The notes under the pieces are model-generated. The model was not told where the DNA came from, did no database searches, and worked only from the letters and a program-made list of their open reading frames with translations. Shown in pieces: positions 1,798-60,955 of a stretch of 64,000 nucleotides of DNA. Made by a program: the position numbers and the translations under genes. Origin of the DNA: Bacilli bacterium (GTDB taxonomy: Bacteria > Bacillota_I > Bacilli_A > RF39 > UBA660); assembly GCA_017433415.1 (NCBI GenBank), contig JAFRHI010000005.1:6516-70515 (forward strand), read 5' to 3'. The stretch's first letter is position 1. Every line of letters starts with the position of its first letter.

Positions 1798-2040
1798 TTT
1801 TATCCCTCCAAAAAAAAATTATTATAAACATAAGGACGAATTACTCGCGGTACCACCTTATTTTATAATAATCAATATTATACACTTAAATAGTTAACGC
1901 CTATCTACGTTTATACCTACATATCGATATAAAAGTTCCGAAGCCATACTAATATAAGAATTCATACTCTTTTTCACCAACCGAGCTCTCTAAAATGAAC
2001 AACAATATATTAGCTCTCCATCAACACATTTAAAACACGA
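1798..2040 (-). promoter_or_regulatory. T-box riboswitch leader of metG
   Basis: The minus strand shows the T-box core AAGGTGGTACCGCGAG (1844-1860). Stem I elements are GTTGATGGAGAG (2014-2025, GA/K-turn motif) and AGAGAGCTCGGTTGGTGAAAA (AG box plus distal loop, from 1991 downward). Two AUG-purine candidates for a Met specifier lie at 1963-1965 and 1945-1947. A T9 run precedes the GGAGGG RBS, but I could not fold a convincing terminator hairpin by eye. Confidence 0.8.
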
Positions 2041-11023: not shown

Positions 11024-12682
11024 TTATTCAACTTCAACAATATCACCAAATAGTTCAATTGCATCATTACTTATTATATCATCTTTATCTATTTCTTCCA
11101 AGATAACTTCAGGTTCTTTTAAAATTTCATATTTTATATTATTTTTAAGATCAACAATATATTTATCTTTAGTCCTATTCCATTCCTCATCAGAAATAAT
11201 AGCAATAAGTTTATTAGAACTTGTAATTTTATTATAAGTATCAGATAATTTAGTAATAATATCCAAGTTTTGTTTAACATTAGAGTCATAAGCAAAACTA
11301 ATTATCATACTATCAGGACTAACAACCCTAACTTTAGAATCTAATAAGGCACAAGCAATATAACCAATTTTTGGATCAAAAGTATAATCTTTTAATAACT
11401 CAAACAATTTTAACTCTTCCTTTAAAAGGGTTTTATTAGCAGCTGCTAAAGTATTATTAATACGTATTTTCATAATCTCATCAATATTTAATATCTTTTG
11501 ATCTACAGAAACATAATTACTTTTCGAATTAGATCTTTTAGAATTTTTCTTTTCAATTAAAACAGAATTATTATTATTATCATTAACATTAGATTTAATT
11601 AAATCATTATTAACCCTATTTTCGTTAGAAGTAACAGAAATTATATTTATATTATCATTAATAAATTTCAATAAACATATTTCCACATAAATTCTAACAT
11701 TACCGCTTCTTTTTATATCGAACAAACATTCGTTAATATAATTAGCTAATTTAAGTAATTTATCATCAGAATAATTAATACTACTTTTTTCCACATAGAA
11801 AGAAACAAGCAAATTTCTTATATAATTAAGTAACTGTATTAATATATAAATTAAATTTTTACCATTATTATCAAACAAATTTAACAAATTAAGTAATATA
11901 CCTGTATTTCCTTCTAAAATAGATCCTAATAATTTTTCCAAATCCTCTTGTAATACAATAGCATTAACTTCAGAAAACTGCTTCATAGTAATTTTCTCAT
12001 CTGAATAAGAAACAAGTTTATCAAGCATTCCCAAAGCATCCCGCATACCACCATCAGAAAGCATTGCGATATTTTCCAGAACATCTTTTTCTATTTTAAT
12101 TTTTTCCTTAGAACAAATTTCCACAAGCTTTTCTACTACTATTTCTGGAGCAATCCTACTAAAAGAAAAGCATTGACACCTAGAAACAATAGTTTCAGGA
12201 ACTTTTTGAGGATCAGTTGTTGCTAAAATAAAAATTGCATGTTCAGGTGGCTCCTCCAAAGTTTTCAACAATGCATTAAAAGCACCAATCGATAACATAT
12301 GAACTTCATCTATTATATAAACTTTATATTTAAGTTCACTAGGAACTAAAGAAATTTTATTTTTTAATTCTCTAATTTCATCAACACCATTATTGGAAGC
12401 CGCATCAATTTCAATAATATCAATACAATCATGAGAAAAAGAAACCTTACAAGATTCACATTTTCCACACGCCAAACCATTTTTAGATTTTAAGCAATTA
12501 ATATTTCTAGCAAATATTTTAGAAACTGTAGTTTTTCCAGTACCCCTAGGTCCAAAAAACATATATGCATGGGAAAAATTTTTGTCCACAATTGAATTTA
12601 CAAGAGTTTTTACAATAACATCTTGGCCAACTACAGAATCAAAATCTATAGGACGATATTTTCTATATAAAGCTTGATACAT
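11024..12682 (-). CDS. dnaX: DNA polymerase III subunits gamma/tau
   Basis: 552 aa with AAA+ motifs GPRGTGKTT, DEVHML and SRCQ, plus a zinc module CGKCESC. Confidence 0.95.
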   Translation of the reverse strand: MYQALYRKYRPIDFDSVVGQDVIVKTLVNSIVDKNFSHAYMFFGPRGTGKTTVSKIFARNINCLKSKNGLACGKCESCKVSFSHDCIDIIEIDAASNNGVDEIRELKNKISLVPSELKYKVYIIDEVHMLSIGAFNALLKTLEEPPEHAIFILATTDPQKVPETIVSRCQCFSFSRIAPEIVVEKLVEICSKEKIKIEKDVLENIAMLSDGGMRDALGMLDKLVSYSDEKITMKQFSEVNAIVLQEDLEKLLGSILEGNTGILLNLLNLFDNNGKNLIYILIQLLNYIRNLLVSFYVEKSSINYSDDKLLKLANYINECLFDIKRSGNVRIYVEICLLKFINDNINIISVTSNENRVNNDLIKSNVNDNNNNSVLIEKKNSKRSNSKSNYVSVDQKILNIDEIMKIRINNTLAAANKTLLKEELKLFELLKDYTFDPKIGYIACALLDSKVRVVSPDSMIISFAYDSNVKQNLDIITKLSDTYNKITSSNKLIAIISDEEWNRTKDKYIVDLKNNIKYEILKEPEVILEEIDKDDIISNDAIELFGDIVEVE

Positions 12683-13177: not shown

Positions 13178-13200
13178 TATGATCACCCATAAACAAAAAA

Positions 13201-13271
13201 GTGCACATGAATGTTGGTTCTTAAGGCTGCTATCTTCCAATCCTGACCTGGTTCAAACACATCCATTGCAC
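13201..13271 (-). ncRNA. ffs: signal recognition particle RNA, short (4.5S/Mycoplasma-like) form
   Basis: The minus strand reads GTGCAATGGATGTGTTTGAACCAGGTCAGGATTGGAAGATAGCAGCCTTAAGAACCAACATTCATGTGCAC followed by TTTTTT. It contains the domain IV core CCAGGUCAGG...GGAA...AGCAGCC. The 5' and 3' ends are complementary. The gene is adjacent to tadA/dnaX, as scr is in B. subtilis. Confidence 0.8.
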
Positions 13272-13277
13272 AAGTAA

Positions 13278-13306
13278 ATTTTAATATAAAAATTAAATAA
13301 AGTAAA
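13278..13306 (-). promoter_or_regulatory. candidate sigma-A promoter of the SRP RNA
   Basis: On the minus strand, TTTACT (13301-13306) is followed by 17 nt, then TAAAAT (13278-13283), then 6 nt to the first paired G of the RNA. Confidence 0.4.
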
Positions 13307-13353
13307 CAAATAATGATATTTATTATGTTTTTAATATATAAAGGCTTTTTTCA

Positions 13354-13369
13354 TGTTTCACGTGAAACA
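13354..13369. promoter_or_regulatory. parS (ParB/Spo0J binding site), copy 1
   Basis: TGTTTCACGTGAAACA is a 16/16 match to the perfect palindromic parS consensus. Confidence 0.85.
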
Positions 13370-13388
13370 TCACACTTTTCATCTTAAT

Positions 13389-13404
13389 TATTTCCCAGGA
13401 AATA
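13389..13404. promoter_or_regulatory. NBS (Noc-binding site), copy 1
   Basis: TATTTCCCAGGAAATA is a 15/16 match to the B. subtilis NBS palindrome TATTTCCCGGGAAATA (core ATTTCCCGGGAAAT). Confidence 0.75.
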
Positions 13405-13421
13405 TTTTTTATACTTTTTTA

Positions 13422-13437
13422 TGTTTCACGTGAAACA
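13422..13437. promoter_or_regulatory. parS, copy 2
   Basis: TGTTTCACGTGAAACA, a 16/16 match. Confidence 0.85.
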
Positions 13438-13456
13438 TTCCACTTTTTATCTTAAT

Positions 13457-13472
13457 TATTTCCCGGGAAATA
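13457..13472. promoter_or_regulatory. NBS, copy 2
   Basis: TATTTCCCGGGAAATA, a 16/16 match to the NBS palindrome. Confidence 0.8.
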
Positions 13473-13491
13473 TTTTTTATATTTTTTTCTA

Positions 13492-13507
13492 TGTTTCACG
13501 TGGAACA
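13492..13507. promoter_or_regulatory. parS, copy 3
   Basis: TGTTTCACGTGGAACA is the reverse complement of TGTTCCACGTGAAACA, the common natural B. subtilis parS variant. Confidence 0.85.
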
Positions 13508-13517
13508 TATTACAAAC

Positions 13518-13544
13518 AAAAAAAAAGAAGAGCTATTACTCTTC
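13518..13544 (-). terminator. intrinsic terminator of gyrA
   Basis: The minus strand reads GAAGAG-TAATAG-CTCTTC followed by T9. The hairpin loop contains the gyrA stop codon. Confidence 0.7.
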
Positions 13545-15971
13545 ATTATCTGTAGATTCTTCTTTTTCAACAAGTGCTACTGTTGATACTTTTTGATTGT
13601 CTTTAAGATTTATTAATCTAACACCCTGTGTTGCTCGCTTCAAAGTAGATACTTGCTCCAACGGTAATTTAATAATTATTCCACTATCTGTAATAATCAT
13701 TAAATCTAAATCAGCAGCAGGTTTTAAACATTTTAATGAAGCCATCATTCCATTTTTTTCTGTTACATTTAATGCCTTAACACCCTTACTTCCTCTATGA
13801 GTAAGTCGATATTCATCAATTAATGTTTGTTTTCCATACCCATTTTCTGTAACGATTAATACCAAATGACCTGATTCAACAACTTCTGCACCTACTACAA
13901 TACTTCCACAAAGATCCATTCCTTTAACGCCAGTGCTATTTCTACCCATAGATCTAACTTCAGATTCATTAAATCTGACTAATCGACCGTTACTAGCTCC
14001 GATTACAATTTCGTTTTTTCCACAAGTGCTTTTTACGCTGATTAGTTCATCATTTTCTTTTAATACGATAGCAATTTTACCACTTTTTCTAATATTATCA
14101 AACTCTTCTATAGGAGTCCTTTTAACAATTCCATTTTTTGTAGCAAACATTAAATATTTAGTAAAATCATCATCTCTTTTAATATTAACTATCGAACTAA
14201 TGTTCTCATTTTTTTCTAATGGCAATAAGTTTACTATAGGCAATCCTTTTGATTGTCTAGAAAATTCTGGTATTTCATAACCTTTCATTCGATAAACACG
14301 ACCTCTATTAGAGAAGAACAAGATATAATCATGAGTATTCATAGAAATTAGATGTTCAACAAAATCTTCCTCATTAGTAGTCATACCCTTAATACCTACT
14401 CCACCTCTATTTTGAGTTTTATAAGTATCAGTTCTTAACCTTTTAATATAACCATTTTTGGTCAAATTAATTATTATATCTTCTTCAGGAATTAAAGATT
14501 CATCTTCAATGTATTCTATTGCTGTCATATCAATATTAGTACGTCTCTCATCACCATATTTTTGTTTAATTTCTAAAAGTTCATTCTTAATTACTTCTAA
14601 AATCTTTTCATCACTAGCTAAAATTGCTTTTAATTCAGCAATTGTTTTTAACAATTCATTCAATTCGTTTTCAATTTTTTCACGTTCCAAACCAGTCAAA
14701 CGACGCAATCTCATTTCTAAAATTGCATTTGCTTGAATTTCAGTTAAACCAAAATTGCTCATTAAACCATTTCTAGCTTCTTCATCAGAATCAGAACCTC
14801 TAATAATTTTGATAACAGCATCAATATTATCAAGAGCTATTTTTAATCCTTCTAAAATATGAACTCTTTTTTCTGCAACATCCAAATCAAATTTTGTTCG
14901 TCTTATAATTACCTCTTTTTGATATTCAATATATTTAGATATTATTTCCTTTAATCCTAAAGTTTTTGGAACACCTTGATCTAACATTAAGAAAATAATT
15001 CCATAGGTTGTTTGAAATGAAGTATGCTTATATAACTTATTCAAAACAACTTGCGCATTAGCATCTTTTTTCAATGTAATAGTTATTTTTATACCATTTT
15101 TTAAATCAGAATGATAATCAGCAATACCATCAATTATTTTATTATGAACAAGTTCAGCAACTTTATTCTTCAGTTCCAACGTATTAACACCATATGGAAC
15201 TTCATCAATAATAATATGTTGTCTACCATTACTCTCTTCAATTGTTGCTTTACTTCGAATTGTAATTGATCCCCTACCAGTTTCATATGCTTTTCTAATT
15301 CCACTATTTCCAAGAATTATAGCACCAGTAGGAAAATCAGGACCTTTAATATGCTTCATTAATTCGTCCAATTCAATATCAGGATTATCAATATAAGCAA
15401 CACATCCATCAATTACTTCACTTAAATTATGTGGTGGAATATTAGTAGCCATACCAACAGCAATACCTGTTGTTCCATTAACTAAAATATTAGGAAATCT
15501 TGATGGTAAAACCTCTGGTTCTCTTTCACTTTCATCAAAGTTAGGAACAAAATTAACTGTGTCTTTATTAATATTTCTAAGTAACTCCAAAGAAATTTTA
15601 GATAATCTAGACTCCGTATAACGCATTGCTGCAGCACCATAACCTTCAATGTTACCAAAATTACCATGTCCATCTACTAACATATATCTATATGAAAAAT
15701 CTTGGGCCATACGAACCATTGCCTCATAAATTGAAGAATCACCATGAGGATGATATTTTCCCATTACATCTCCAACTATTCTAGCACTCTTTTTGTGAGG
15801 TTTATCAGGAGTATAACCAGATTCATACATAGAATATAAAATACGTCTATGAACCGGTTTTAATCCATCTCTTAAATCTGGAAGAGCTCTAGCAACAATA
15901 ACACTCATAGAATACTCTAAAAATGAATCTTGAACTTCTTTTACAATATTATTTTTTTCTAATCTGTCCAT
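13536..15971 (-). CDS. gyrA: DNA gyrase subunit A
   Basis: 811 aa with the catalytic Tyr context AAMRYTE, the QRDR segment [13 protein letters not shown] and a C-terminal beta-pinwheel. Confidence 0.97.
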
Positions 15972-19145: not shown

Positions 19146-19592
19146 TTAACTATTTTTGTGATTTCTTAATATTAAATCTAATCTGGAAGCCCTAGATAAT
19201 TGATTTTCAAAAGTTCGATATGAACAATCAATAATCAATTCTTTATTATTATCAAAAATAACTTTTGTATAATTATTTTCAATTTTTTCTATTTTTTTGA
19301 CTCTTCTTAATGATATCCAAACACAATCATCTGCCGATGGAGATGTTGTTGGAAACACAATTAAATTATTACTATCTTCTATTACGATAGGTACCTTATA
19401 TTCTGCACCAAGTATTTCTCTGGCTCCATTTTTTCTACCTTCATAAGTACTTCCAAAATATTTGCAACTTTCCTCCATTATTGAAAAAGGTGTTTGATCA
19501 ATAATATACCTTTCTTCATCCTCATACACTATACTACTATAATTTTCATTAGGAACAATTGCTAAAGTTCCTTTACTTATTTCATATTTCAT
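19146..19592 (-). CDS. comK: ComK-family transcription factor (short, 148 aa)
   Basis: SCKYFGSTYEGRKNGA, YKVPIVIEDSNNLIVFPTTSPSADDCVWIS and SYRTFENQLSRASRL align with B. subtilis ComK segments recalled from memory (SCRFFGSSYAGRKAGT, HKPPIMVDPSNQIFLFPTLSSTRPQCGWIS, SYNSFENQVYRTAWL). Confidence 0.8.
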   Translation of the reverse strand: MKYEISKGTLAIVPNENYSSIVYEDEERYIIDQTPFSIMEESCKYFGSTYEGRKNGAREILGAEYKVPIVIEDSNNLIVFPTTSPSADDCVWISLRRVKKIEKIENNYTKVIFDNNKELIIDCSYRTFENQLSRASRLDLILRNHKNS

Positions 19593-22478: not shown

Positions 22479-22610
22479 TAATCCACAAAAAATCCACATG
22501 ATTATCCACAGATAATTTGTCGAAATAAAAGGAAATAAAACACTTTTCCACATTTTCCACAAATTTTTATTAACATATGTAGAAAAAATAATTAACATAC
22601 TTGTGGAAAT
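22479..22610. promoter_or_regulatory. oriC DnaA-box cluster (dnaA-rpmH spacer)
   Basis: Six box-like 9-mers: TAATCCACA 22479-22487, AAATCCACA 22490-22498, TTATCCACA 22502-22510 (perfect), TTTTCCACA 22544-22552 and 22553-22561, and TGTGGAAAT 22602-22610 (inverted). Gene orientation diverges here. Confidence 0.85.
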
Positions 22611-26289: not shown

Positions 26290-28161
26290 ATGGTAGAAAT
26301 AATAGTAGTAGTAGGTGCAGGACATGCAGGATGTGAAGCAGCCTATGCTGCTGCTAAAAAAGGTCATAAAACACTACTAATTACTAGTAATATTAATAAT
26401 ATTGCTGATATGCCATGTAATCCCCATATTGGTGGTAGTGCTAAAGGTATAGTTGTTAGAGAAATAGATGCTCTAGGTGGAATTATGGGTAAAATTGCCG
26501 ATAAAACTCATCTTCAAATAAAAATGCTAAATAGCGCCAAAGGACCAGCTGTTCAGTCATTAAGAGCTCAAGGAGATAAAGTAACCTATCCACAAGAAAT
26601 GTTAAAAACTCTAAAAACTCTTGATACTCTTGAAATAAAAGAAGCAATGGTTGAAGATCTAATTATTGAAGATAATACTGTAAAAGGAGTAATATTAGAA
26701 AGCAACGAAAGAATAGAATCAAAAATAGTCATTTTAACGACAGGAACATACTTAAAAGCCGATATTTTAGTAGGAAATACTAGGACAAGACAAGGACCAC
26801 ATGGAGAAAAACCATCCCTTCATCTAAGTGATAAATTAAGAGAATATGGCTTTGAAATTAAAAGACTAAAAACAGGAACTCCTCAAAGAATTGATAGAAA
26901 GACAATAGATTTTTCCAAAACAAGAATCGAACCGGGAGATAATAAGTATTTAACATTTAGTTTTGATCTAGAACCACAATACAAAATAGAAGATCAATTA
27001 CCATGTTACTTAACATATACAACAGAAGAAACACATAGGATAATTAGAGAAAATCTAAACAAATCATCAATGTATGGTGCTCTAGATGATATTGAAGGAA
27101 TTGGCCCAAGATATTGTCCATCAATAGAAGATAAAGTAGTAAGATTTGCCGATAAGGAGAGACATCAATTATTTATTGAACCTGAAAGTAAATATTATGA
27201 TGATATGTATCTTCAAGGTTTTTCAACATCAATGCCAAAAGAGGTTCAAGATTTAATGGTTCATTCATTACCAGGATTTGAAAAAGCTAAAATATTAAAA
27301 TATGGCTATGCAATCGAATATGATGCTATTTATCCTACTCAATTAAATGCTTCATTAGAAACAAAAATAATCAAAAATTTATATACAGCAGGGCAAATAA
27401 ATGGAACTAGTGGCTATGAAGAAGCCGCTTGTCAAGGACTAATGGCAGGAATAAATGCAAGTTTAAAATTAGAAGGAAAAGAACCTCTAATTTTAAAAAG
27501 AAATGAAGCATACATAGGAGTTTTAATTGATGATTTAATAACAAAAGGAATTAGAGACCCATATCGCTTATTAACGAGTAGAGCAGAATTTAGATTAATT
27601 TTAAGAAGTGATAATGCTGATCAAAGATTGAGAAGATATGGTTATGAAGTAGGTTTAATTGATAAAGAACAAATATCACGTTTAAATCAAAAAGAAAAAG
27701 AGATAGAAGAATGTTTAAACTGGTTAAAAGAAACACGTTTAAAAATAACCTCTGAAGCAAAAAAAATATTTGTAGAAAATAATATTCCTATTCCAAATGC
27801 AACTATGACTTTTGAAAACTTATTAAAAAGACCTGAGATCACTGTGGAATTTCTAGAAAAATTTCAAGAATTTCCATACAGAGAAGAAATAAAAGAACAA
27901 GTAGAAATATTTCTAAAATATGAAGGATATATTATAAAAGCATATAAAGAGGCAGAAAAACTTTCAAAATTAGAAAAAAAGCAAATTCCTACTGATATTG
28001 ATTATGATAGAGTAAAAAATCTTGCTTCAGAAGCAAGACAAAAACTAAAAGAAGTTAGACCAAGAACAATTGCCCAAGCTATAAGGATTAGTGGAGTCAA
28101 TCCTTCAGATATTTCAATCCTTTCAGTATACTTAAAAAAGGAGTATGGAAAAGATGACTAA
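26290..28161 (+). CDS. mnmG: tRNA uridine 5-carboxymethylaminomethyl modification enzyme MnmG
   Basis: 623 aa with the FAD-binding motif VGAGHAGCEAA. The mnmE-mnmG-rsmG order is conserved. Confidence 0.95.
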   Translation: MVEIIVVVGAGHAGCEAAYAAAKKGHKTLLITSNINNIADMPCNPHIGGSAKGIVVREIDALGGIMGKIADKTHLQIKMLNSAKGPAVQSLRAQGDKVTYPQEMLKTLKTLDTLEIKEAMVEDLIIEDNTVKGVILESNERIESKIVILTTGTYLKADILVGNTRTRQGPHGEKPSLHLSDKLREYGFEIKRLKTGTPQRIDRKTIDFSKTRIEPGDNKYLTFSFDLEPQYKIEDQLPCYLTYTTEETHRIIRENLNKSSMYGALDDIEGIGPRYCPSIEDKVVRFADKERHQLFIEPESKYYDDMYLQGFSTSMPKEVQDLMVHSLPGFEKAKILKYGYAIEYDAIYPTQLNASLETKIIKNLYTAGQINGTSGYEEAACQGLMAGINASLKLEGKEPLILKRNEAYIGVLIDDLITKGIRDPYRLLTSRAEFRLILRSDNADQRLRRYGYEVGLIDKEQISRLNQKEKEIEECLNWLKETRLKITSEAKKIFVENNIPIPNATMTFENLLKRPEITVEFLEKFQEFPYREEIKEQVEIFLKYEGYIIKAYKEAEKLSKLEKKQIPTDIDYDRVKNLASEARQKLKEVRPRTIAQAIRISGVNPSDISILSVYLKKEYGKDD

Positions 28162-28789
28162 GGAAGAATTTATAAAAGCTTTAAAAGAAATAGGAATAAA
28201 CATTAGTAGTGAACAATTGCAACAATTGAATGAGTTTTATCAGATATTATTGGAATGGAATAAAAAAATCAATTTAACAAGAATAACATCAGAGAAAGAA
28301 GTTTATTTAAAACATTTTTATGACAGTTTAACCCTAAATAAAGTTGTTTCTCTTGAAAAAATAAAAACAGTTTGTGATGTGGGTACAGGAGCAGGATTTC
28401 CAGGTATAGTTTTAAAAATATGTTTTCCACATCTAAAAATAACATTAGTTGATTCATTACAAAAAAGAATAAACTACCTTAATTATGTAATAAACCAATT
28501 AAACTTAAAAGATATAGAGGCTATTCATACAAGAGGAGAAGAATTCAGTGGAAAATATGAATTAGTAACTGCTAGAGCAGTGGCTAATATTGAAAAACTA
28601 TTAGGTTACACAATGCATTTGGTAGATAAAAATGGTATATTTGTTGCTATGAAAGGAAATATAGAAGATGAATTAACACCACAAATTAGTAAAAAAATAG
28701 AATCTAAGTATAAAATTATAAAAATAGAAAAATTTAAATTACCCCAAGAAGAAAGTCAAAGAAGTCTAATATTAATAAAAAATAAATAA
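28154..28789 (+). CDS. rsmG: 16S rRNA (guanine527-N7)-methyltransferase
   Basis: Carries the SAM motif DVGTGAGFPG. I moved the start to ATG 28154 because GGAG at 28139-28142 is too close to the ATG at 28145. Confidence 0.9.
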   Translation: MTKEEFIKALKEIGINISSEQLQQLNEFYQILLEWNKKINLTRITSEKEVYLKHFYDSLTLNKVVSLEKIKTVCDVGTGAGFPGIVLKICFPHLKITLVDSLQKRINYLNYVINQLNLKDIEAIHTRGEEFSGKYELVTARAVANIEKLLGYTMHLVDKNGIFVAMKGNIEDELTPQISKKIESKYKIIKIEKFKLPQEESQRSLILIKNK

Positions 28790-28852: not shown

Positions 28853-29060
28853 ATGAAAACACTAATGATGGCAATTATAATTTTTAATTCTAATAAATAT
28901 CTTTATTTTAACTGAAGTTTTTTGGTTATCTCTTCCTTGGTGGATCTATATATTATTAGTAGGATGTATATTAATTGCTTTTGCTATAAAAAATGAAATA
29001 TCAGAAAAGAACACTAAAAAGAGTTCTTTAAAAGAACTAGCAGAAAAAATGAATTTATAA
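28853..29060 (+). pseudogene. small two-TM membrane protein gene split by a frameshift at a T5 run
   Basis: A strong RBS (AGGAGGT) precedes ATG 28853, giving MKTLMMAIIIFNSNKYLYFN then TGA at 28913-28915. The +1 frame continues FLILINIFILTEVFWLSLPWWIYILLVGCILIAFAIKNEISEKNTKKSSLKELAEKMNL to TAA at 29058-29060. Removing one T from T5 (28881-28885) fuses them into a 68-aa ORF. Confidence 0.35.
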
Positions 29061-29155: not shown

Positions 29156-30490
29156 ATGTATCCTGGAGAAAATGATGAAGTAGTTCAATTATACTTAGAT
29201 GATATAATTCCAAATAGATTTCAACCACGTGAAGTGTTTGATGAAAAAGCTCTAAAAGAGCTAGCAGTCTCTATTAAAGAACATGGAGTTATTCAACCAA
29301 TAATAGTTCGAAAAGTAAATGAAAAATATGAAATAATAGCCGGAGAAAGAAGGTATAAAGCTTCCGCTCTAGCAGGACTTACAAAGATACCAGCTATTAT
29401 TAGAGATTTAGATGATAAAGAAAGTTCAAAAGTGGCCCTACTTGAAAATCTTCAAAGAAAAAATTTAAACCCAATTGAAGAAGCAAGAACATATCAAAAA
29501 ATATTAGAAATAGATCAAATGACTCAAGAACAACTTGCTAGAACTATGGGTAAAAGTCAATCAGCTGTTGCAAATAAAATAAGATTACTTTCATTACCTG
29601 AGGAAATACAAGAGGCTTTATTAAAAGAAGAAATATCAGAAAGACATGCTAGAACGTTACTAAATATACCAGATGCCAAAAAACAAAAAGAAATGTTAAA
29701 AAAAGTAATAGATAATAAAATGAGTGTTAAAAATTTAGAAGATGAAATCAAAAGTTTATATCCAAAAGGAGAGTCTCAAACAGTGACAGCACCAGTAAAA
29801 GAAGAAGTAATTGCAACCGCTAGTGATTTTGTTAATAGTAATCCATTAATCCCAACTGCAGAAATACCAGAAGAAACATCAAATTATGGAAAAGTTGTTA
29901 TAGCTCCTCCAGAAGGAGAATCTATGCCAACAGGTAAATACATAAATTATGGTGAAATAGAGAAAGATGAAGAAAAAGAAATAGACAACTCACTTAATAT
30001 TCCAACACAAGTACCTTCAGTAGATATTAATGCCATAAAAGAAAATGCAACAGATATTAATACTGCACCAGGTAATGAAGCAGCCTTAGACAACTTATTA
30101 AATTTAAATTTAAATAATGTTGGAACGAGCAATGATTATATTACTCCGGGTGAAAAAATTGTAAAAACAGATACAGCAGAGTTAGATGATGAACAATCTG
30201 ATTATTTCCAAACACCAGATTTATCATCACTACAAGTTGCTTCACCGGTAATACCAACCTCAACAACTCCTGAAACATCAAGCATTTTTGAATTAGAAGC
30301 AACACCACAAGGATTACCAGAAAGTGATTCAAGTACTCCAGCACCTTCTAAAGATACAATAACTGTTGCAGTTGATAAGATAAGAATTCTAGCAGAAGAA
30401 TTAAAATCATCAGGATTAGGTGTTACTCTAGATGAAATGGATTTTGATAATACATATCAAATAATTATCAAAATAGATAAAGAAAGTTAA
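29156..30490 (+). CDS. noc: ParB-family protein, Noc-like, with a long disordered insertion
   Basis: ATG 29156 follows the RBS AGAGAGGTGA. The sequence has a ParB N-domain (IIPNRFQPR, IIAGERRYKAS, ENLQRKNL). The HTH segment MGKSQSAVANKIRLLSLP resembles B. subtilis Noc (GQSTIANKLRLL, from memory). The C-terminus DTITVAVDKIRILAEELKSSGLGVTLDEMDFDNTYQIIIKIDK resembles the Noc C-terminus. The gene sits in the rsmG-noc-soj-spo0J position. Confidence 0.7.
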   Translation: MYPGENDEVVQLYLDDIIPNRFQPREVFDEKALKELAVSIKEHGVIQPIIVRKVNEKYEIIAGERRYKASALAGLTKIPAIIRDLDDKESSKVALLENLQRKNLNPIEEARTYQKILEIDQMTQEQLARTMGKSQSAVANKIRLLSLPEEIQEALLKEEISERHARTLLNIPDAKKQKEMLKKVIDNKMSVKNLEDEIKSLYPKGESQTVTAPVKEEVIATASDFVNSNPLIPTAEIPEETSNYGKVVIAPPEGESMPTGKYINYGEIEKDEEKEIDNSLNIPTQVPSVDINAIKENATDINTAPGNEAALDNLLNLNLNNVGTSNDYITPGEKIVKTDTAELDDEQSDYFQTPDLSSLQVASPVIPTSTTPETSSIFELEATPQGLPESDSSTPAPSKDTITVAVDKIRILAEELKSSGLGVTLDEMDFDNTYQIIIKIDKES

Positions 30491-30584: not shown

Positions 30585-31373
30585 ATGGGAAAGATTATAT
30601 CATTAGTTAATCAAAAAGGCGGAGTAGGAAAGACCACAACCAGTATCAATCTTTCTGCGTCACTAGCTGAGTTAGGAAAAAGAGTTTTATTGATAGATTT
30701 AGATCCTCAAGGAAATACAACTACCGGAGTAGGAATAAATAAAGGTGAAATAGATAAAAGCATGTATGAAGTTTTAATAGGTGAAGCAAAAATAACAGAT
30801 GCTATGATTAAAACCAAATATAAAAATCTATATGTTTTGCCGGCGTCAATTAATTTAGCTGGATTAGATAATGAATTTAATGAAAAAAGCCACACCGAAA
30901 AGGGCTTTCAAAGAGGAGAACAACTAAAGAATAAAATTACAGATATTAAAGATAGTTTTGATTTTATAATAATTGATTGTCCACCATCGTTAGGAATAAT
31001 TACAACAAACGCATTAACTGCTTCAAATTCTGTTATCATTCCAGTGCAATGCGAATTTTTTGCCCTAGAAGGAATAACTCAATTATTAAAAACTATTATG
31101 ATAGCTCAAAAAAGATTAAATCCAACACTAGATATCGAAGGAGTACTTCTAACAATGCTTGACTCCAGAACAAATTTGGGATTCGAAGTAGTAGAAGATA
31201 TTCGTAAATTTTTTAAAGAAAAAGTATATAACACCATAATCCCAAGATTAGTAAGATTAACAGAAGCACCATCGCACGGTGAACCAATAATAGTATATGA
31301 TCCAAAAAGTAGAGGGTCTGAAGCTTACTTAAACTTAGCAAAGGAAGTGATTGAAAGAAATGGAAACAATTAA
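30585..31373 (+). CDS. soj: chromosome partitioning ATPase Soj/ParA
   Basis: 262 aa with the deviant Walker A NQKGGVGKTTT and DCPPSLG. Confidence 0.95.
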   Translation: MGKIISLVNQKGGVGKTTTSINLSASLAELGKRVLLIDLDPQGNTTTGVGINKGEIDKSMYEVLIGEAKITDAMIKTKYKNLYVLPASINLAGLDNEFNEKSHTEKGFQRGEQLKNKITDIKDSFDFIIIDCPPSLGIITTNALTASNSVIIPVQCEFFALEGITQLLKTIMIAQKRLNPTLDIEGVLLTMLDSRTNLGFEVVEDIRKFFKEKVYNTIIPRLVRLTEAPSHGEPIIVYDPKSRGSEAYLNLAKEVIERNGNN

Positions 31374-32265
31374 TCAAACAGAAAGCGGAATTCCAAAAAG
31401 AAGAGCTTTAGGACGAGGACTAGAAGAATTATTTAATAGTGAAGTACTAGACTATAATTCTGTCGAAGAAAAAATAGTAAATGATACTCCAAAAGAAGAA
31501 ATCACTATGGTAAAAATAAGTGATTTAAGAAGTAATCCATACCAACCAAGAAAAAATTTTGATGAGGAAGCTCTAAAAGAATTAGCAGCCTCAATAAAAG
31601 AACATGGTGTCTTTCAACCAATTATTGTAAAAAAATCAATAAAAGGATATGAAATAATAGCTGGAGAAAGAAGAGTTAAAGCATCTGAAATGGCTGGAAA
31701 AGAAGAAATACCAGCTATTATTAGAGACTTTAATGATACTCAAATGATGGAAATAGCTCTTTTAGAAAATTTGCAAAGAGAAGATTTAAGCGCTATTGAA
31801 GAAGCAAATGCTTATAAAAAACTTCAAGAAACATTATCATTAACTCAAGAAGAATTAGCAAAAAGATTGGGTAAGAGTAGAAGCCACATCACAAATATGC
31901 TTGGTCTACTTACATTACCACCAGAAGTTCAACTAGCAGTAAATAATAAAGAATTATCAATGGGTCATGCTAGAGTATTGAGTAAATTAGAAAATCCAGA
32001 AGAGCAATTACAATTAGCATATAAAATTATATCTGAAGGAATGAGCGTTAGAGGAATTGAAGAATTAACAAGCAATCCAACAATAATCAAAGCAAATCCT
32101 CAAAAAGCAAGAACAAAAAAAGATAATGAATATAGTTATTTAGAAAGTGAATTAAGTGAGAAATTAGGCACAAAAGTAACAATAAGAAAAAATAAAATAG
32201 AAATTAGATTTGTAAATAGTAATGACTTAAACAGATTACTAGAATATATGAATATAGAGGTTTAA
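31360..32265 (+). CDS. spo0J: chromosome partitioning protein ParB/Spo0J
   Basis: Carries the N-terminal ParA-interaction peptide (RALGRGLEELF), the CTP-binding patch IIAGERRVKAS, ENLQRE and the HTH LGKSRSHITNMLGLLTLP. The HTH resembles B. subtilis Spo0J (SRPHIANHLRLL, from memory). I prefer ATG 31360 to the TTG at 31351. Confidence 0.9.
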   Translation: METINQTESGIPKRRALGRGLEELFNSEVLDYNSVEEKIVNDTPKEEITMVKISDLRSNPYQPRKNFDEEALKELAASIKEHGVFQPIIVKKSIKGYEIIAGERRVKASEMAGKEEIPAIIRDFNDTQMMEIALLENLQREDLSAIEEANAYKKLQETLSLTQEELAKRLGKSRSHITNMLGLLTLPPEVQLAVNNKELSMGHARVLSKLENPEEQLQLAYKIISEGMSVRGIEELTSNPTIIKANPQKARTKKDNEYSYLESELSEKLGTKVTIRKNKIEIRFVNSNDLNRLLEYMNIEV

Positions 32266-60893: not shown

Positions 60894-60955
60894 TATATTA
60901 ATAACGCATTTAATTACTATGACATAAATTTTGTCATGGCGGAAGGAGAGATAGT

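What the first reader, a model, noticed from the sequence alone, without database searches (positions are those of the whole stretch)
13345..13510. Alternating parS / Noc-binding-site array: three ParB sites interleaved with two NBS inside a 68-70 bp tandem repeat near oriC
Seen directly: the three parS sites are TGTTTCACGTGAAACA (13354-13369), TGTTTCACGTGAAACA (13422-13437) and TGTTTCACGTGGAACA (13492-13507). Between them lie TATTTCCCAGGAAATA (13389-13404) and TATTTCCCGGGAAATA (13457-13472). Centre-to-centre spacing is 33-35 bp, because all five sites are carried by a 68-70 bp direct repeat.

Established knowledge: TGTTNCACGTGAAACA is the parS site bound by Spo0J/ParB. ATTTCCCGGGAAAT (16-bp form TATTTCCCGGGAAATA) is the Noc-binding site defined in B. 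subtilis. The two palindromes differ at only two positions per half-site. Both ParB and Noc are CTP-gated clamps that load at their site and then slide or spread.

Inference: in B. subtilis, parS and NBS occur as dispersed single sites, and I know of no description of a strictly alternating parS/NBS array. Here it sits about 9 kb from the DnaA-box cluster, between the gyrA terminator and the SRP RNA promoter. Both cognate-looking paralogues (29156-30490 and 31360-32265) are encoded on the other side of oriC. The array would load two different clamps onto the same roughly 150 bp. That could give a mixed centromere/nucleoid-occlusion complex, mutual roadblocking, or competition. It could also be a snapshot of parS-to-NBS diversification by tandem duplication. 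I saw no other parS or NBS in this window by eye, including inside spo0J.
Basis: partly seen in the sequence, partly recalled or inferred. Interest (0 to 1): 0.85.

Follow-up and report, generated by a model that had tools for sequence, protein, structure and literature searches.

The report
Mixed parS / Noc-site centromere array
Next to the replication origin of this small-genome gut bacterium lies a short tandem array that alternates the docking site of the chromosome-partition protein ParB with the docking site of its sister protein Noc, and the same mixed arrangement recurs in the same place in well over a hundred related uncultured species, which suggests a two-protein centromere that has not been described.

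Summary
Window 13345-13510 holds 2.4 copies of a 68-70 bp unit, giving parS-NBS-parS-NBS-parS at 35/33/35/35 bp. There is no other parS or NBS in the 64 kb.

The array lies between the gyrA terminator and the SRP-RNA gene, about 9 kb from the DnaA-box cluster.

Both readers are encoded across oriC:
- A ParB/Spo0J with parS-type specificity residues (R..G).
- An rsmG-linked Noc-type paralogue with NBS-type residues (Q, K, S, R).

The array is not a one-off:
- A pattern scan found at least 120 species genomes with adjacent parS and NBS, 118 of them in the same gyrA-dnaX slot.
- In a sample chosen only by GyrA similarity, 49 of 63 loci carry both site types there.
- A strain 99.94% identical to the window has 9 sites instead of 5.

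Sites fall into two discrete classes with no hybrids. Neighbouring parS-NBS distances are helically phased at about half-integer turns; same-type distances are not.

The Noc-type protein lacks the membrane-targeting helix that defines Noc function. It belongs to a large unnamed subfamily with a long disordered linker.

Best reading: a composite loading platform for two CTP clamps. This is a new variant of known systems. No binding has been tested.

The parts
13345..13510 (.). Tandem array: 2.4 copies of a 68-70 bp unit, each unit carrying one parS and one NBS
   Evidence: TRF gives period 68, 2.4 copies and 90% matches. A same-species strain, L206, has 4.4 copies.
13354..13369 (.). parS 1, TGTTTCACGTGAAACA (perfect)
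13389..13404 (.). NBS 1, TATTTCCCAGGAAATA (1 mismatch, at the central position)
13422..13437 (.). parS 2, TGTTTCACGTGAAACA (perfect)
13457..13472 (.). NBS 2, TATTTCCCGGGAAATA (perfect 16-mer)
13492..13507 (.). parS 3, TGTTTCACGTGGAACA (1 mismatch, at the degenerate position)
13527..13544 (-). Intrinsic terminator of gyrA; the boundary of the array on the gyrA side
   Evidence: 7-bp stem followed by a T9 run
13536..15971 (-). gyrA, the conserved upstream neighbour of the array throughout the clade
   Evidence: NCBIfam gyrA at 1162 bits. gyrA lies next to the cluster in 97 of the 120 pattern-selected loci.
13185..13282 (-). Small SRP RNA gene (ffs), the conserved downstream neighbour. A promoter-like site lies at 13306-13278.
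   Evidence: Rfam RF00169 at 55 bits. Promoter scan. Same arrangement in 5 of 5 relatives tested.
22479..22561 (.). DnaA-box cluster (oriC), about 9 kb from the array
   Evidence: Four boxes within 83 bp upstream of dnaA. GC-skew sign change.
29156..30490 (+). Noc-type ParB paralogue (444 aa), the predicted NBS reader. Specificity residues are Q135, K141, S146 and R163, which correspond to Q173/K179/x184/R201. The CTP motifs GERR and ENLQR are present. There is no N-terminal membrane helix and no ParA-binding motif. About 230 aa of low-complexity linker precede a Noc-type C-terminal domain.
30585..31373 (+). soj (parA)
   Evidence: ParA/MinD-family hits
31351..32265 (+). spo0J/parB, the predicted parS reader. 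Specificity residues are R, M, T, G (R173/G201 type). The N-terminal LGRGL ParA-binding motif is present. The best solved-structure match is B. subtilis Spo0J.
28145..28789 (+). rsmG (gidB). It gives the gene order rsmG, Noc-type gene, soj, spo0J, as in B. subtilis.
   Evidence: The B. subtilis gene order is from my own knowledge.

Best explanation
The array is the principal origin-proximal centromere of this chromosome, built in composite form. A unit of about 68-70 bp carrying one parS and one NBS has been tandemly amplified between the gyrA terminator and the ffs promoter.

Proposed mechanism:
- ParB/Spo0J dimers (R173/G201 type, with a ParA-binding N-terminus) nucleate on the parS sites.
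- Dimers of the rsmG-linked Noc-type paralogue (Q173/K179/R201 type) nucleate on the NBS sites.
- Both proteins keep the CTP-binding motifs. Each is therefore expected to close into a clamp at its own site and slide onto the same flanking DNA, giving a mixed nucleoprotein complex of two clamps about 9 kb from oriC.
- The Noc-type protein lacks the membrane helix and the ParA-binding motif and instead carries a long disordered linker. Its role here is therefore more likely to modify or extend the partition complex, for example its size, its material properties or its partner recruitment, than to cause classical membrane-tethered nucleoid occlusion.
- Array length changes between strains by gain or loss of whole units, which alters the number of loading sites for both proteins together.

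What is shown:
- The identity, position, conservation and discreteness of the sites.
- The matching specificity residues.
- The helical phasing of neighbouring parS and NBS.
- The copy-number polymorphism between strains.

What is inferred:
- Binding by the two proteins.
- CTP-dependent loading and co-spreading.
- The functional purpose of the arrangement.
For: Sites:
- The motifs match the consensus exactly and are far above chance.

Readers:
- The first paralogue matches Noc structures best (7nfu, 218.9 bits, against Spo0J 176.4). The second matches Spo0J best (6sdk, 217.7 bits, against Noc 169.5).
- The specificity residues are QKSR and RMTG.
- Jalal 2020 shows that Q173 reads A1 and R201 reads C6, that one Lys at 179 or 184 suffices, and that R173/G201 are invariant in ParB.
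- All 120 close homologues, and 147 of 150 representatives of 50%-identity clusters, are QKxR.

Conservation:
- At least 120 species-level genomes have adjacent parS and NBS, and 118 of them have the cluster in the gyrA-dnaX slot. GyrA identity to the window ranges from 60 to 92%.
- In a sample selected only by GyrA similarity, 49 of 63 loci have both site types downstream of gyrA.
- ffs flanks the array in 5 of 5 relatives tested.
- Unit periods differ between near relatives (61, 62, 64, 68, 75, 76, 83, 84, 115, 119 bp). The sites are kept while the spacers turn over.

Selection on the DNA itself:
- 263 of 318 clustered NBS are perfect 16-mers.
- Isolated perfect NBS inside dnaX are read in two different reading frames in different species.

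Two separate readers:
- There are 628 parS-type and 416 NBS-type palindromes and no mixed ones.

Geometry:
- parS-NBS neighbour distances peak at about 26, 36, 47, 57 and 68 bp.
- Over all loci, after collapsing similar spacers, R = 0.24 at a 10.5 bp period (n = 225, p about 2e-6).
- In loci not chosen by the pattern, R = 0.33 (n = 73).
- None of 1000 jitter nulls reaches the observed value.
- The phase is 0.46 of a turn.
- parS-parS and NBS-NBS distances show no phasing (R = 0.03-0.04).

Dynamics:
- L206 is 99.94% identical to the window over 19.5 kb but has 9 sites against 5. L201, L202 and L203 have 7, 5 and 7 sites.

Uniqueness:
- In 20-kb oriC loci, the array holds the only parS and NBS present.
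Against: - No binding, loading or localisation data exist for any member of this clade. Everything rests on homology and comparative genomics.
- One related species (L233-L240) has the Noc-type gene, but the visible 740 bp past gyrA holds only parS. In the GyrA-selected sample, 6 loci have parS only and 6 have NBS only. Interleaving is therefore frequent but not obligatory.
- The excess of heterotypic adjacency over random order is only a trend in the GyrA-selected sample: 152 observed against 117 expected, with a per-locus sign test of p = 0.08.
- The phasing test still carries some phylogenetic non-independence. The window's own spacings (35 and 33 bp) sit on the shoulder of a peak rather than on it.
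- I could not test whether NBS are also spread chromosome-wide, as in Bacillus. If they are, classical roles remain possible.
Confidence: 0.6

Rival explanations
1. Antagonistic tuning. The interleaved NBS load a ParA-inert clamp whose job is to restrain ParB. It could do so as a roadblock, by competing for the DNA track, or by diluting ParB-ParB bridging. Alternatively ParB restrains the Noc-type protein. On this reading the array is a rheostat, not a cooperative platform.
For: - The two site types lie 18-50 bp apart, so clamps released from one must immediately meet the other.
- The Noc-type protein lacks the ParA-binding motif.
- The number of sites varies between strains.
- That sliding ParB clamps cannot pass tightly bound proteins is established knowledge from my memory of the ParB literature. 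I did not retrieve it here.
Against: - Both proteins are expected to leave their sites after CTP binding, so neither should be a stable roadblock.
- Half-turn phasing is more easily read as allowing simultaneous occupancy than as exclusion.
- Units amplify both sites together, so their ratio is not changed.
Confidence: 0.2
2. Neutral hitch-hiking. An NBS happened to lie beside a parS and was copied along with it by replication slippage. The two proteins act independently and the proximity has no function.
For: - Strict alternation follows trivially from duplicating a two-site unit.
- The arrays are unstable between strains.
- Some relatives have arrays of one site type only.
Against: - The mixed state persists across GyrA divergence down to 60%, with many independent unit lengths.
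- 78% of the loci selected by GyrA similarity have both site types.
- Heterotypic neighbours are helically phased while homotypic ones are not.
- Heterotypic neighbours are much closer (median 44 bp) than parS-parS neighbours (median 105 bp).
Confidence: 0.08
3. Classical nucleoid occlusion focused on the origin. The Noc-type protein tethers origin DNA to the membrane and blocks division over it, as B. subtilis Noc does, and the array is simply its strongest site.
For: - The NBS motif is identical to that of Bacillus and Staphylococcus.
- The rsmG-noc synteny is kept.
- Dispersed perfect NBS exist near the origin in relatives.
- Spo0J and Noc jointly prevent premature Z rings in B. subtilis.
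Against: - The N-terminal amphipathic helix is required for Noc function and was present in all homologues examined by Adams 2015.
- That helix is absent here, in all 120 close homologues and in 150 cluster representatives, where a median of 16 residues precede PNRFQPR.
- The protein begins roughly where the helix-less crystallisation construct of Geobacillus Noc begins.
- It scores below the NCBIfam Noc cut-off.
Confidence: 0.07
4. The palindromes are not protein sites. They act as RNA or DNA structures, for example terminators, REP-like elements or recombination hot spots.
For: - The region folds strongly as single-stranded DNA (z = -8).
- It lies between two transcription units.
Against: - The fold score is a trivial consequence of repeated palindromes.
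- The real gyrA terminator lies outside the array, and no T-run follows the palindromes on the transcribed strand.
- The unit is not dispersed.
- The same two 16-mers, not merely any palindromes, are conserved across the clade and match the specificity residues of the two proteins.
Confidence: 0.02

Closest known systems
ParB/Spo0J-parS chromosomal centromere (B. subtilis, Caulobacter)
   Same: - The 16-bp parS palindrome.
- Origin-proximal clustering.
- A cognate ParB with R173/G201, the CTP motifs and a ParA-binding N-terminus.
- An adjacent soj gene.
   Different: - The parS sites are interleaved at 18-70 bp with the sites of a second ParB-family protein.
- The sites sit in a tandemly amplified, strain-variable array rather than as single sites spread over tens of kilobases.
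- There is no parS inside spo0J.
Noc-NBS nucleoid occlusion system (B. subtilis, S. aureus; Wu 2009, Adams 2015, Jalal 2020 and 2021, Pang 2017)
   Same: - An identical NBS 16-mer.
- Q173, K179 and R201 specificity residues.
- The CTP motifs.
- The gene sits directly after rsmG.
- A Noc-type C-terminal domain.
- Isolated NBS also occur in relatives.
   Different: - No N-terminal amphipathic membrane-targeting helix.
- Position 184 is never Lys.
- A disordered linker of 100-500 aa.
- NBS are concentrated with parS at the centromere. In Bacillus about 70, and in S. aureus about 41, dispersed sites are reported.
- The protein scores below the NCBIfam Noc cut-off.
Tandem-repeat plasmid centromeres (for example F sopC, 12 x 43 bp; from my own knowledge)
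   Same: - Iterated units each carrying a palindromic ParB-family binding site.
- Copy number is variable.
   Different: - Each unit here carries two different sites, for two different paralogues.
- The element is chromosomal and fixed next to gyrA.
Multi-ParB genomes with orthogonal parS types (for example the Burkholderia multipartite replicons; from my own knowledge)
   Same: Several ParB paralogues, each with its own cognate palindrome, kept strictly orthogonal.
   Different: In those genomes each site type marks a different replicon. Here the two orthogonal site types are deliberately placed together on one stretch of 150-700 bp.

Membership tests
Chromosomal ParABS centromere (parS) | 16-bp palindrome TGTTNCACGTGAAACA | tested here: met
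   Two perfect copies and one copy with 1 mismatch; 0.19 matches expected by chance.
Chromosomal ParABS centromere (parS) | Origin-proximal location | tested here: met
   About 9 kb from the DnaA-box cluster and the GC-skew switch.
Chromosomal ParABS centromere (parS) | Cognate ParB with parS-type residues (R173, G201), a ParA-binding motif and an adjacent parA gene | tested here: met
   Specificity residues RMTG; LGRGL motif present; soj lies upstream; best PDB match is Spo0J 6sdk.
Chromosomal ParABS centromere (parS) | ParB binds the site, loads with CTP and spreads | not testable with these tools
   Needs biochemistry or ChIP-seq.
Noc-NBS nucleoid occlusion system | NBS palindrome TATTTCCCGGGAAATA | tested here: met
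   One perfect copy and one copy with 1 mismatch. 263 perfect copies occur in the clusters of relatives.
Noc-NBS nucleoid occlusion system | Specificity residues Q173, K179, K184, R201 | tested here: met
   Q, K and R are present and position 184 is Ser. Jalal 2020 reports that one Lys at 179 or 184 suffices. The same pattern holds in 120 of 120 homologues and 147 of 150 cluster representatives.
Noc-NBS nucleoid occlusion system | Conserved N-terminal amphipathic helix that targets the membrane and is required for function | tested here: not met
   Only 18 residues precede PNRFQPR, they are acidic, and a ribosome-binding site fixes the start codon. The alignment starts at residue 24 of Geobacillus Noc. 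The feature is absent clade-wide. The requirement comes from Adams 2015.
Noc-NBS nucleoid occlusion system | NCBIfam TIGR04285 score above the curated cut-off | tested here: not met
   298.9 bits against a cut-off of 315.
Noc-NBS nucleoid occlusion system | [quoted passage not shown] | tested here: inconclusive
   In the window, NBS occur only in the array. Relatives have isolated perfect NBS near the origin, about 1 per 22 kb of flanking DNA. No whole genome could be scanned.
Noc-NBS nucleoid occlusion system | CTP-binding ParB N-domain (GERR and ENLQR boxes) | tested here: met
   The motifs are present and invariant in the alignment. CTPase activity itself was not tested.
REP-like or dispersed palindromic repeat | Many copies dispersed around the chromosome irrespective of locus | tested here: not met
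   The spacer of the unit is found only in the array. In relatives the clusters are in the same gyrA-dnaX slot in 118 of 120 loci. No sites occur elsewhere in 20-kb oriC loci.

The most novel reading that the evidence does not exclude
ParB and a membrane-helix-less Noc-type paralogue assemble a stereospecific two-clamp centromere. Their nucleation sites are placed on opposite faces of the helix so that both dimers load side by side, and the mixed train of clamps forms one origin complex. The paralogue's long disordered linker, with its short conserved motifs, would recruit an unknown partner.

On this reading the ancestral job of Noc-type proteins would be as a co-factor of the centromere. Nucleoid occlusion in Bacillales would be a later innovation, arising through gain of the membrane helix and dispersal of the NBS.
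Probability: 0.3. Interest if true: 0.88.

Novelty: new variant of a known kind. Interest (0 to 1): 0.76.

Why it matters
ParB and Noc are the two best-studied CTP-gated DNA clamps, and they have been treated as working at separate places for separate purposes. A natural, widely conserved locus puts their loading sites within 2-7 helical turns of each other, with helical phasing. That makes several open questions directly testable with a 150-bp DNA and two purifiable proteins:
- What happens when two orthogonal clamps share one DNA track?
- Do ParB-family paralogues interact with each other?
- What did Noc do before it acquired membrane binding?

The finding also defines a large unstudied subfamily of Noc-type proteins that lack the feature thought to define Noc function. 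These proteins occur in very common, uncultured, small-genome gut bacteria. In addition, the system offers a ready-made orthogonal pair of sites and proteins for DNA-labelling tools.

Tried and rejected
- **Exact-protein look-up of the window's GyrA.** It is not on record.
- **Homologue search with a 76-aa DnaN fragment from a parS-only relative (L180).** The aim was to reach that contig's noc region. Only fragments on short contigs came back, so this was a wasted search.
- **Negative co-variation test.** I wanted to know whether genomes whose array lacks NBS also lack the Noc-type gene. This was not achieved. The L34-based look-ups returned lineages that all carry the gene, including one species whose visible array is parS-only.
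- **Deep-mutational-scan fitness of QKSR and related variants in the supplement of Jalal 2020.** The variant table is not held. I relied on the text, which states that one Lys suffices.
- **Single-strand folding of the array.** The strongly negative z-score is a trivial result of palindromes pairing.
- **Terminator reading of the palindromes.** Rejected. The only terminator-like site is the gyrA terminator, which lies outside the array.
- **'Site diversification in progress'.** Rejected, because there are no hybrid or mixed sites.
- **General 10.5-bp periodicity of AT-rich DNA as the cause of the phasing.** Rejected, because parS-parS and NBS-NBS distances show none.
- **Taxonomic labels.** 'Muribaculaceae' and 'Bacteroides helcogenes' on some loci were ignored as mis-binned, because the loci carry the same Bacilli-type synteny.
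- **GTDB placement of the clade.** I could not verify it. My guess of RF39-like is from memory only. NCBI files one named member under Bacilli incertae sedis.
Full report
**1. The observation**

- parS at 13354-13369 and 13422-13437, both TGTTTCACGTGAAACA.
- parS at 13492-13507, TGTTTCACGTGGAACA.
- NBS at 13389-13404, TATTTCCCAGGAAATA.
- NBS at 13457-13472, TATTTCCCGGGAAATA.

Tandem Repeats Finder gives period 68, 2.4 copies and 90% matches. The repeat finder gives unit spacings of 68 and 70 bp. Site-to-site spacings are 35, 33, 35 and 35 bp.

Shuffles of the window predict 0.19 parS-like and 0.51 NBS-like matches even when 3 mismatches are allowed. No other site with 2 mismatches or fewer exists in the 64 kb. 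The spacer of the unit occurs nowhere else in the window.

**2. Context**

- GC content is about 27%.
- GC skew changes sign at 22-24 kb.
- Four DnaA boxes cluster at 22479-22561, upstream of dnaA.
- On the minus strand the gene order is dnaA, dnaN, a ComK-family gene, recF, gyrB and gyrA (13536-15971). After gyrA come its terminator (13544-13527), the array, a small SRP RNA (13185-13282), a tadA-like deaminase, dnaX and recR.
- On the other side of oriC the order is rpmH, rnpA, yidC, jag, mnmE, mnmG, rsmG, a ParB paralogue (29156-30490), soj and a second ParB paralogue (31351-32265).

**3. The two readers**

The first paralogue matches Noc structures best: Geobacillus 7nfu at 218.9 bits, against Spo0J 6sdk at 176.4. 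The second matches B. subtilis Spo0J best: 217.7 bits, against Noc at 169.5.

Jalal et al. 2020 established four specificity positions:
- ParB has R173, T179, A184 and G201. R173 and G201 are invariant in ParB.
- Noc has Q173, K179, K184 and R201.
- Q173 reads base 1 of the NBS and R201 reads base 6.
- A single Lys at position 179 or 184 is enough.

In the window, the first paralogue has Q, K, S, R. The second has R, M, T, G and also carries the LGRGL ParA-binding motif. Both keep the GERR and ENLQR boxes of the CTP pocket.

**4. The paralogue is not a canonical Noc**

- It starts at ATG 29156, behind a good ribosome-binding site.
- Only 18 acidic residues precede the PNRFQPR box.
- Its alignment to Geobacillus Noc begins at residue 24 of that protein, beyond the amphipathic helix. 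The crystallisation construct that lacks both N-terminal helices begins at residue 27.
- Adams et al. 2015 found the N-terminal helix in all Noc homologues they examined and showed that it is required for function.
- The protein scores 298.9 bits on the NCBIfam Noc model, whose cut-off is 315.
- It has about 230 residues of low-complexity linker before a Noc-type C-terminal domain.

This is a family trait. All 120 close homologues are QKxR with 14-19 N-terminal residues. The best 150 representatives of 50%-identity clusters, taken from 1.84 billion proteins, are also almost all QKxR (147 of 150). In them position 184 is never Lys. They have a median of 16 residues before the box and a median length of 471 aa.

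**5. The array is a clade-wide architecture**

Nearly all are uncultured low-GC gut 'Bacilli', 'Tenericutes', 'Mollicutes' or 'Clostridium sp. CAG' genomes.

Many carry long, strictly alternating arrays:

| Locus | Arrangement | Spacings (bp) |
|---|---|---|
| L081 | nine parS-NBS pairs | 40/35 |
| L012 | eight pairs | 26/38 |
| L046 | six pairs | 49/35 |
| L056 | six pairs | 32/44 |

In 118 of the 120 loci the cluster lies in the same slot as in the window. It is next to gyrA (97 loci) and/or dnaX (86 loci). GyrA identity to the window ranges from 60 to 92%.

That set was selected for the pattern, so I drew a second sample of 80 metagenome loci chosen only by GyrA similarity (70-93%). Of the 63 loci with at least 400 bp beyond gyrA:
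- 49 have both site types.
- 6 have parS only.
- 6 have NBS only.
- 2 have neither.

The SRP RNA gene flanks the array in 5 of 5 relatives tested.

**6. Dynamics**

An exact-sequence look-up of ribosomal protein L34 returned 20-kb oriC loci that contain both the array and the noc-soj-spo0J genes.
- L206 is 99.94% identical to the window over 19.5 kb but has nine sites (PNPNPNPNP) instead of five.
- Three strains of a sister species have 7, 5 and 7 sites.

Arrays therefore grow and shrink by whole parS+NBS units within species. Unit lengths also differ between close species. In these loci the array holds the only parS and NBS within 20 kb of oriC.

**7. Two discrete site classes under selection**

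I examined 1,072 sites that share the scaffold TxTTnCxC/GxGnAAxA. Of these, 628 are pure parS and 416 are pure NBS. None combines a parS half-site with an NBS half-site. Only about 30 have any off-class half-site.

Among the 318 clustered NBS, 83% are perfect 16-mers.

Sixty-one isolated perfect NBS also occur in the flanks, where about 0.0002 would be expected by my own base-composition estimate. Most are inside dnaX. Some species read them as ..IISREI.. and others as ..NYFPGN.., so selection acts on the DNA and not on the peptide.

This rules out the 'snapshot of diversification' idea. It argues for two strictly orthogonal homodimeric readers.

**8. Geometry**

Adjacent parS-NBS pairs are close together, with a median of 44 bp. 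Adjacent parS-parS pairs have a median of 105 bp.

The parS-NBS distances pile up at about 26, 36, 47, 57 and 68 bp. After collapsing related spacers:

| Set | n | Rayleigh R at 10.5 bp | p |
|---|---|---|---|
| parS-NBS, all loci | 225 | 0.24 | about 2e-6 |
| parS-NBS, loci not chosen by the pattern | 73 | 0.33 | 3e-4 |
| parS-parS | 60 | 0.03 | not significant |
| NBS-NBS | 27 | 0.04 | not significant |

None of 1000 jitter controls reaches the observed values for parS-NBS pairs. The phase is about 0.46 of a turn. The two kinds of dimer therefore tend to sit on opposite faces of the helix. This points to simultaneous occupancy with a structural constraint.

The window's 35-bp spacing lies on the 34-37 bp mode; its single 33-bp spacing does not. 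Some phylogenetic non-independence remains, so I treat the phasing as a well-supported lead and not as proof.

**9. Limits**

- Interleaving is not obligatory. One species (L233-L240) carries a QKTR paralogue, yet the visible 740 bp past gyrA holds 7-8 parS and no NBS.
- In a sub-lineage the Noc-type gene stands alone after rsmG, followed by a penicillin-binding-protein gene, with soj and spo0J elsewhere.
- The excess of heterotypic neighbours over random order is only a trend in the GyrA-selected sample (p = 0.08).
- I could not obtain whole genomes, so the chromosome-wide distribution of NBS is unknown.
- I could not complete a negative co-variation test.

**10. Interpretation**

The best-supported reading is a composite centromere, in which ParB and a helix-less Noc-type paralogue are loaded side by side and spread over the same origin-proximal DNA.

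The rivals are listed with their evidence in the structured fields:
- Antagonistic tuning.
- Neutral hitch-hiking.
- Classical membrane-tethered occlusion.
- A non-protein structure.

**11. Novelty**

Four full-text searches and readings of the key Noc and ParB papers found no description of mixed parS/NBS arrays or of Noc-type proteins without the membrane helix. The 2025 survey of the ParB-CTPase fold describes Noc only in its canonical form.

The components are known. The new elements are:
- Their combination at one locus.
- The conserved position of the array.
- The helical phasing.
- The helix-less subfamily.

I therefore rate the finding as a new variant of a known kind.

Noticed in passing
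related loci L001-L240 plus window 13354-13507: Centre-to-centre distances of neighbouring parS and NBS are helically phased, with peaks at about 26, 36, 47, 57 and 68 bp and a phase of about half a turn. parS-parS and NBS-NBS distances are not phased.
   Followed up: yes
for example L002:3792, L006:4702, L023:2298 and L170:8843; the equivalent gene in the window is dnaX 11024-12682: A perfect 16-mer NBS sits inside the dnaX coding region in many relatives. Some species read it as IISREI and others as NYFPGN, so the DNA motif, not the peptide, is conserved. The window's own dnaX has none.
   Followed up: partly
window 29156-30490, residues about 215-400; alignment A1: The long low-complexity linker of the Noc-type protein contains short conserved motifs. 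The window's lineage has GKVVIAPPEGE, INYGE and DYFQTPD. A distant lineage has EPPTDLETSAPNL and IETFDMFGD. These may be docking motifs for an unknown partner.
   Followed up: no
window 19146-19592 (-): A ComK-family gene (Pfam PF06338, 160.9 bits) sits between dnaN and recF in the core oriC gene block and is conserved there across the clade. Some relatives also have a TfoX_N gene inserted between parts of the array (L209-L211).
   Followed up: no
L218-L227 and L233-L240, about 16.2-18.5 kb: In a more distant sub-lineage the Noc-type gene (QKNR or QKTR) stands alone after rsmG. It is followed by a class A penicillin-binding-protein gene on the opposite strand, and soj and spo0J are not adjacent.
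   Followed up: partly
L166:6501-6660, L179, L134: Extreme arrays occur in relatives. L166 has seven parS at exactly 26-bp spacing, L179 has four parS at 105 bp, and L134 has 23 mixed sites.
   Followed up: no
window 13185-13282 (-): The SRP RNA is of the small (4.5S-like, 97-nt model) type. From my own knowledge, Bacillus has the large type. This is consistent with a reduced genome.
   Followed up: no
window 1829-2033 (-) and 60917-60948 (+): A T-box leader lies upstream of the ORF at 259-1797, and there is an L31-Firmicutes ribosomal-protein leader. Both are ordinary cis-regulatory RNAs.
   Followed up: no
L005, L006, L013, L031 and others: Several genome bins labelled Muribaculaceae or Bacteroides helcogenes carry this Bacilli-type gyrA-array-dnaX locus. 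These contigs are probably mis-binned or mislabelled.
   Followed up: no
window 28855-29060 (+): There is a gap of about 370 bp between rsmG and the Noc-type gene. It holds small hydrophobic ORF-like stretches of unknown significance. Relatives have different unannotated ORFs inserted at the same place.
   Followed up: no
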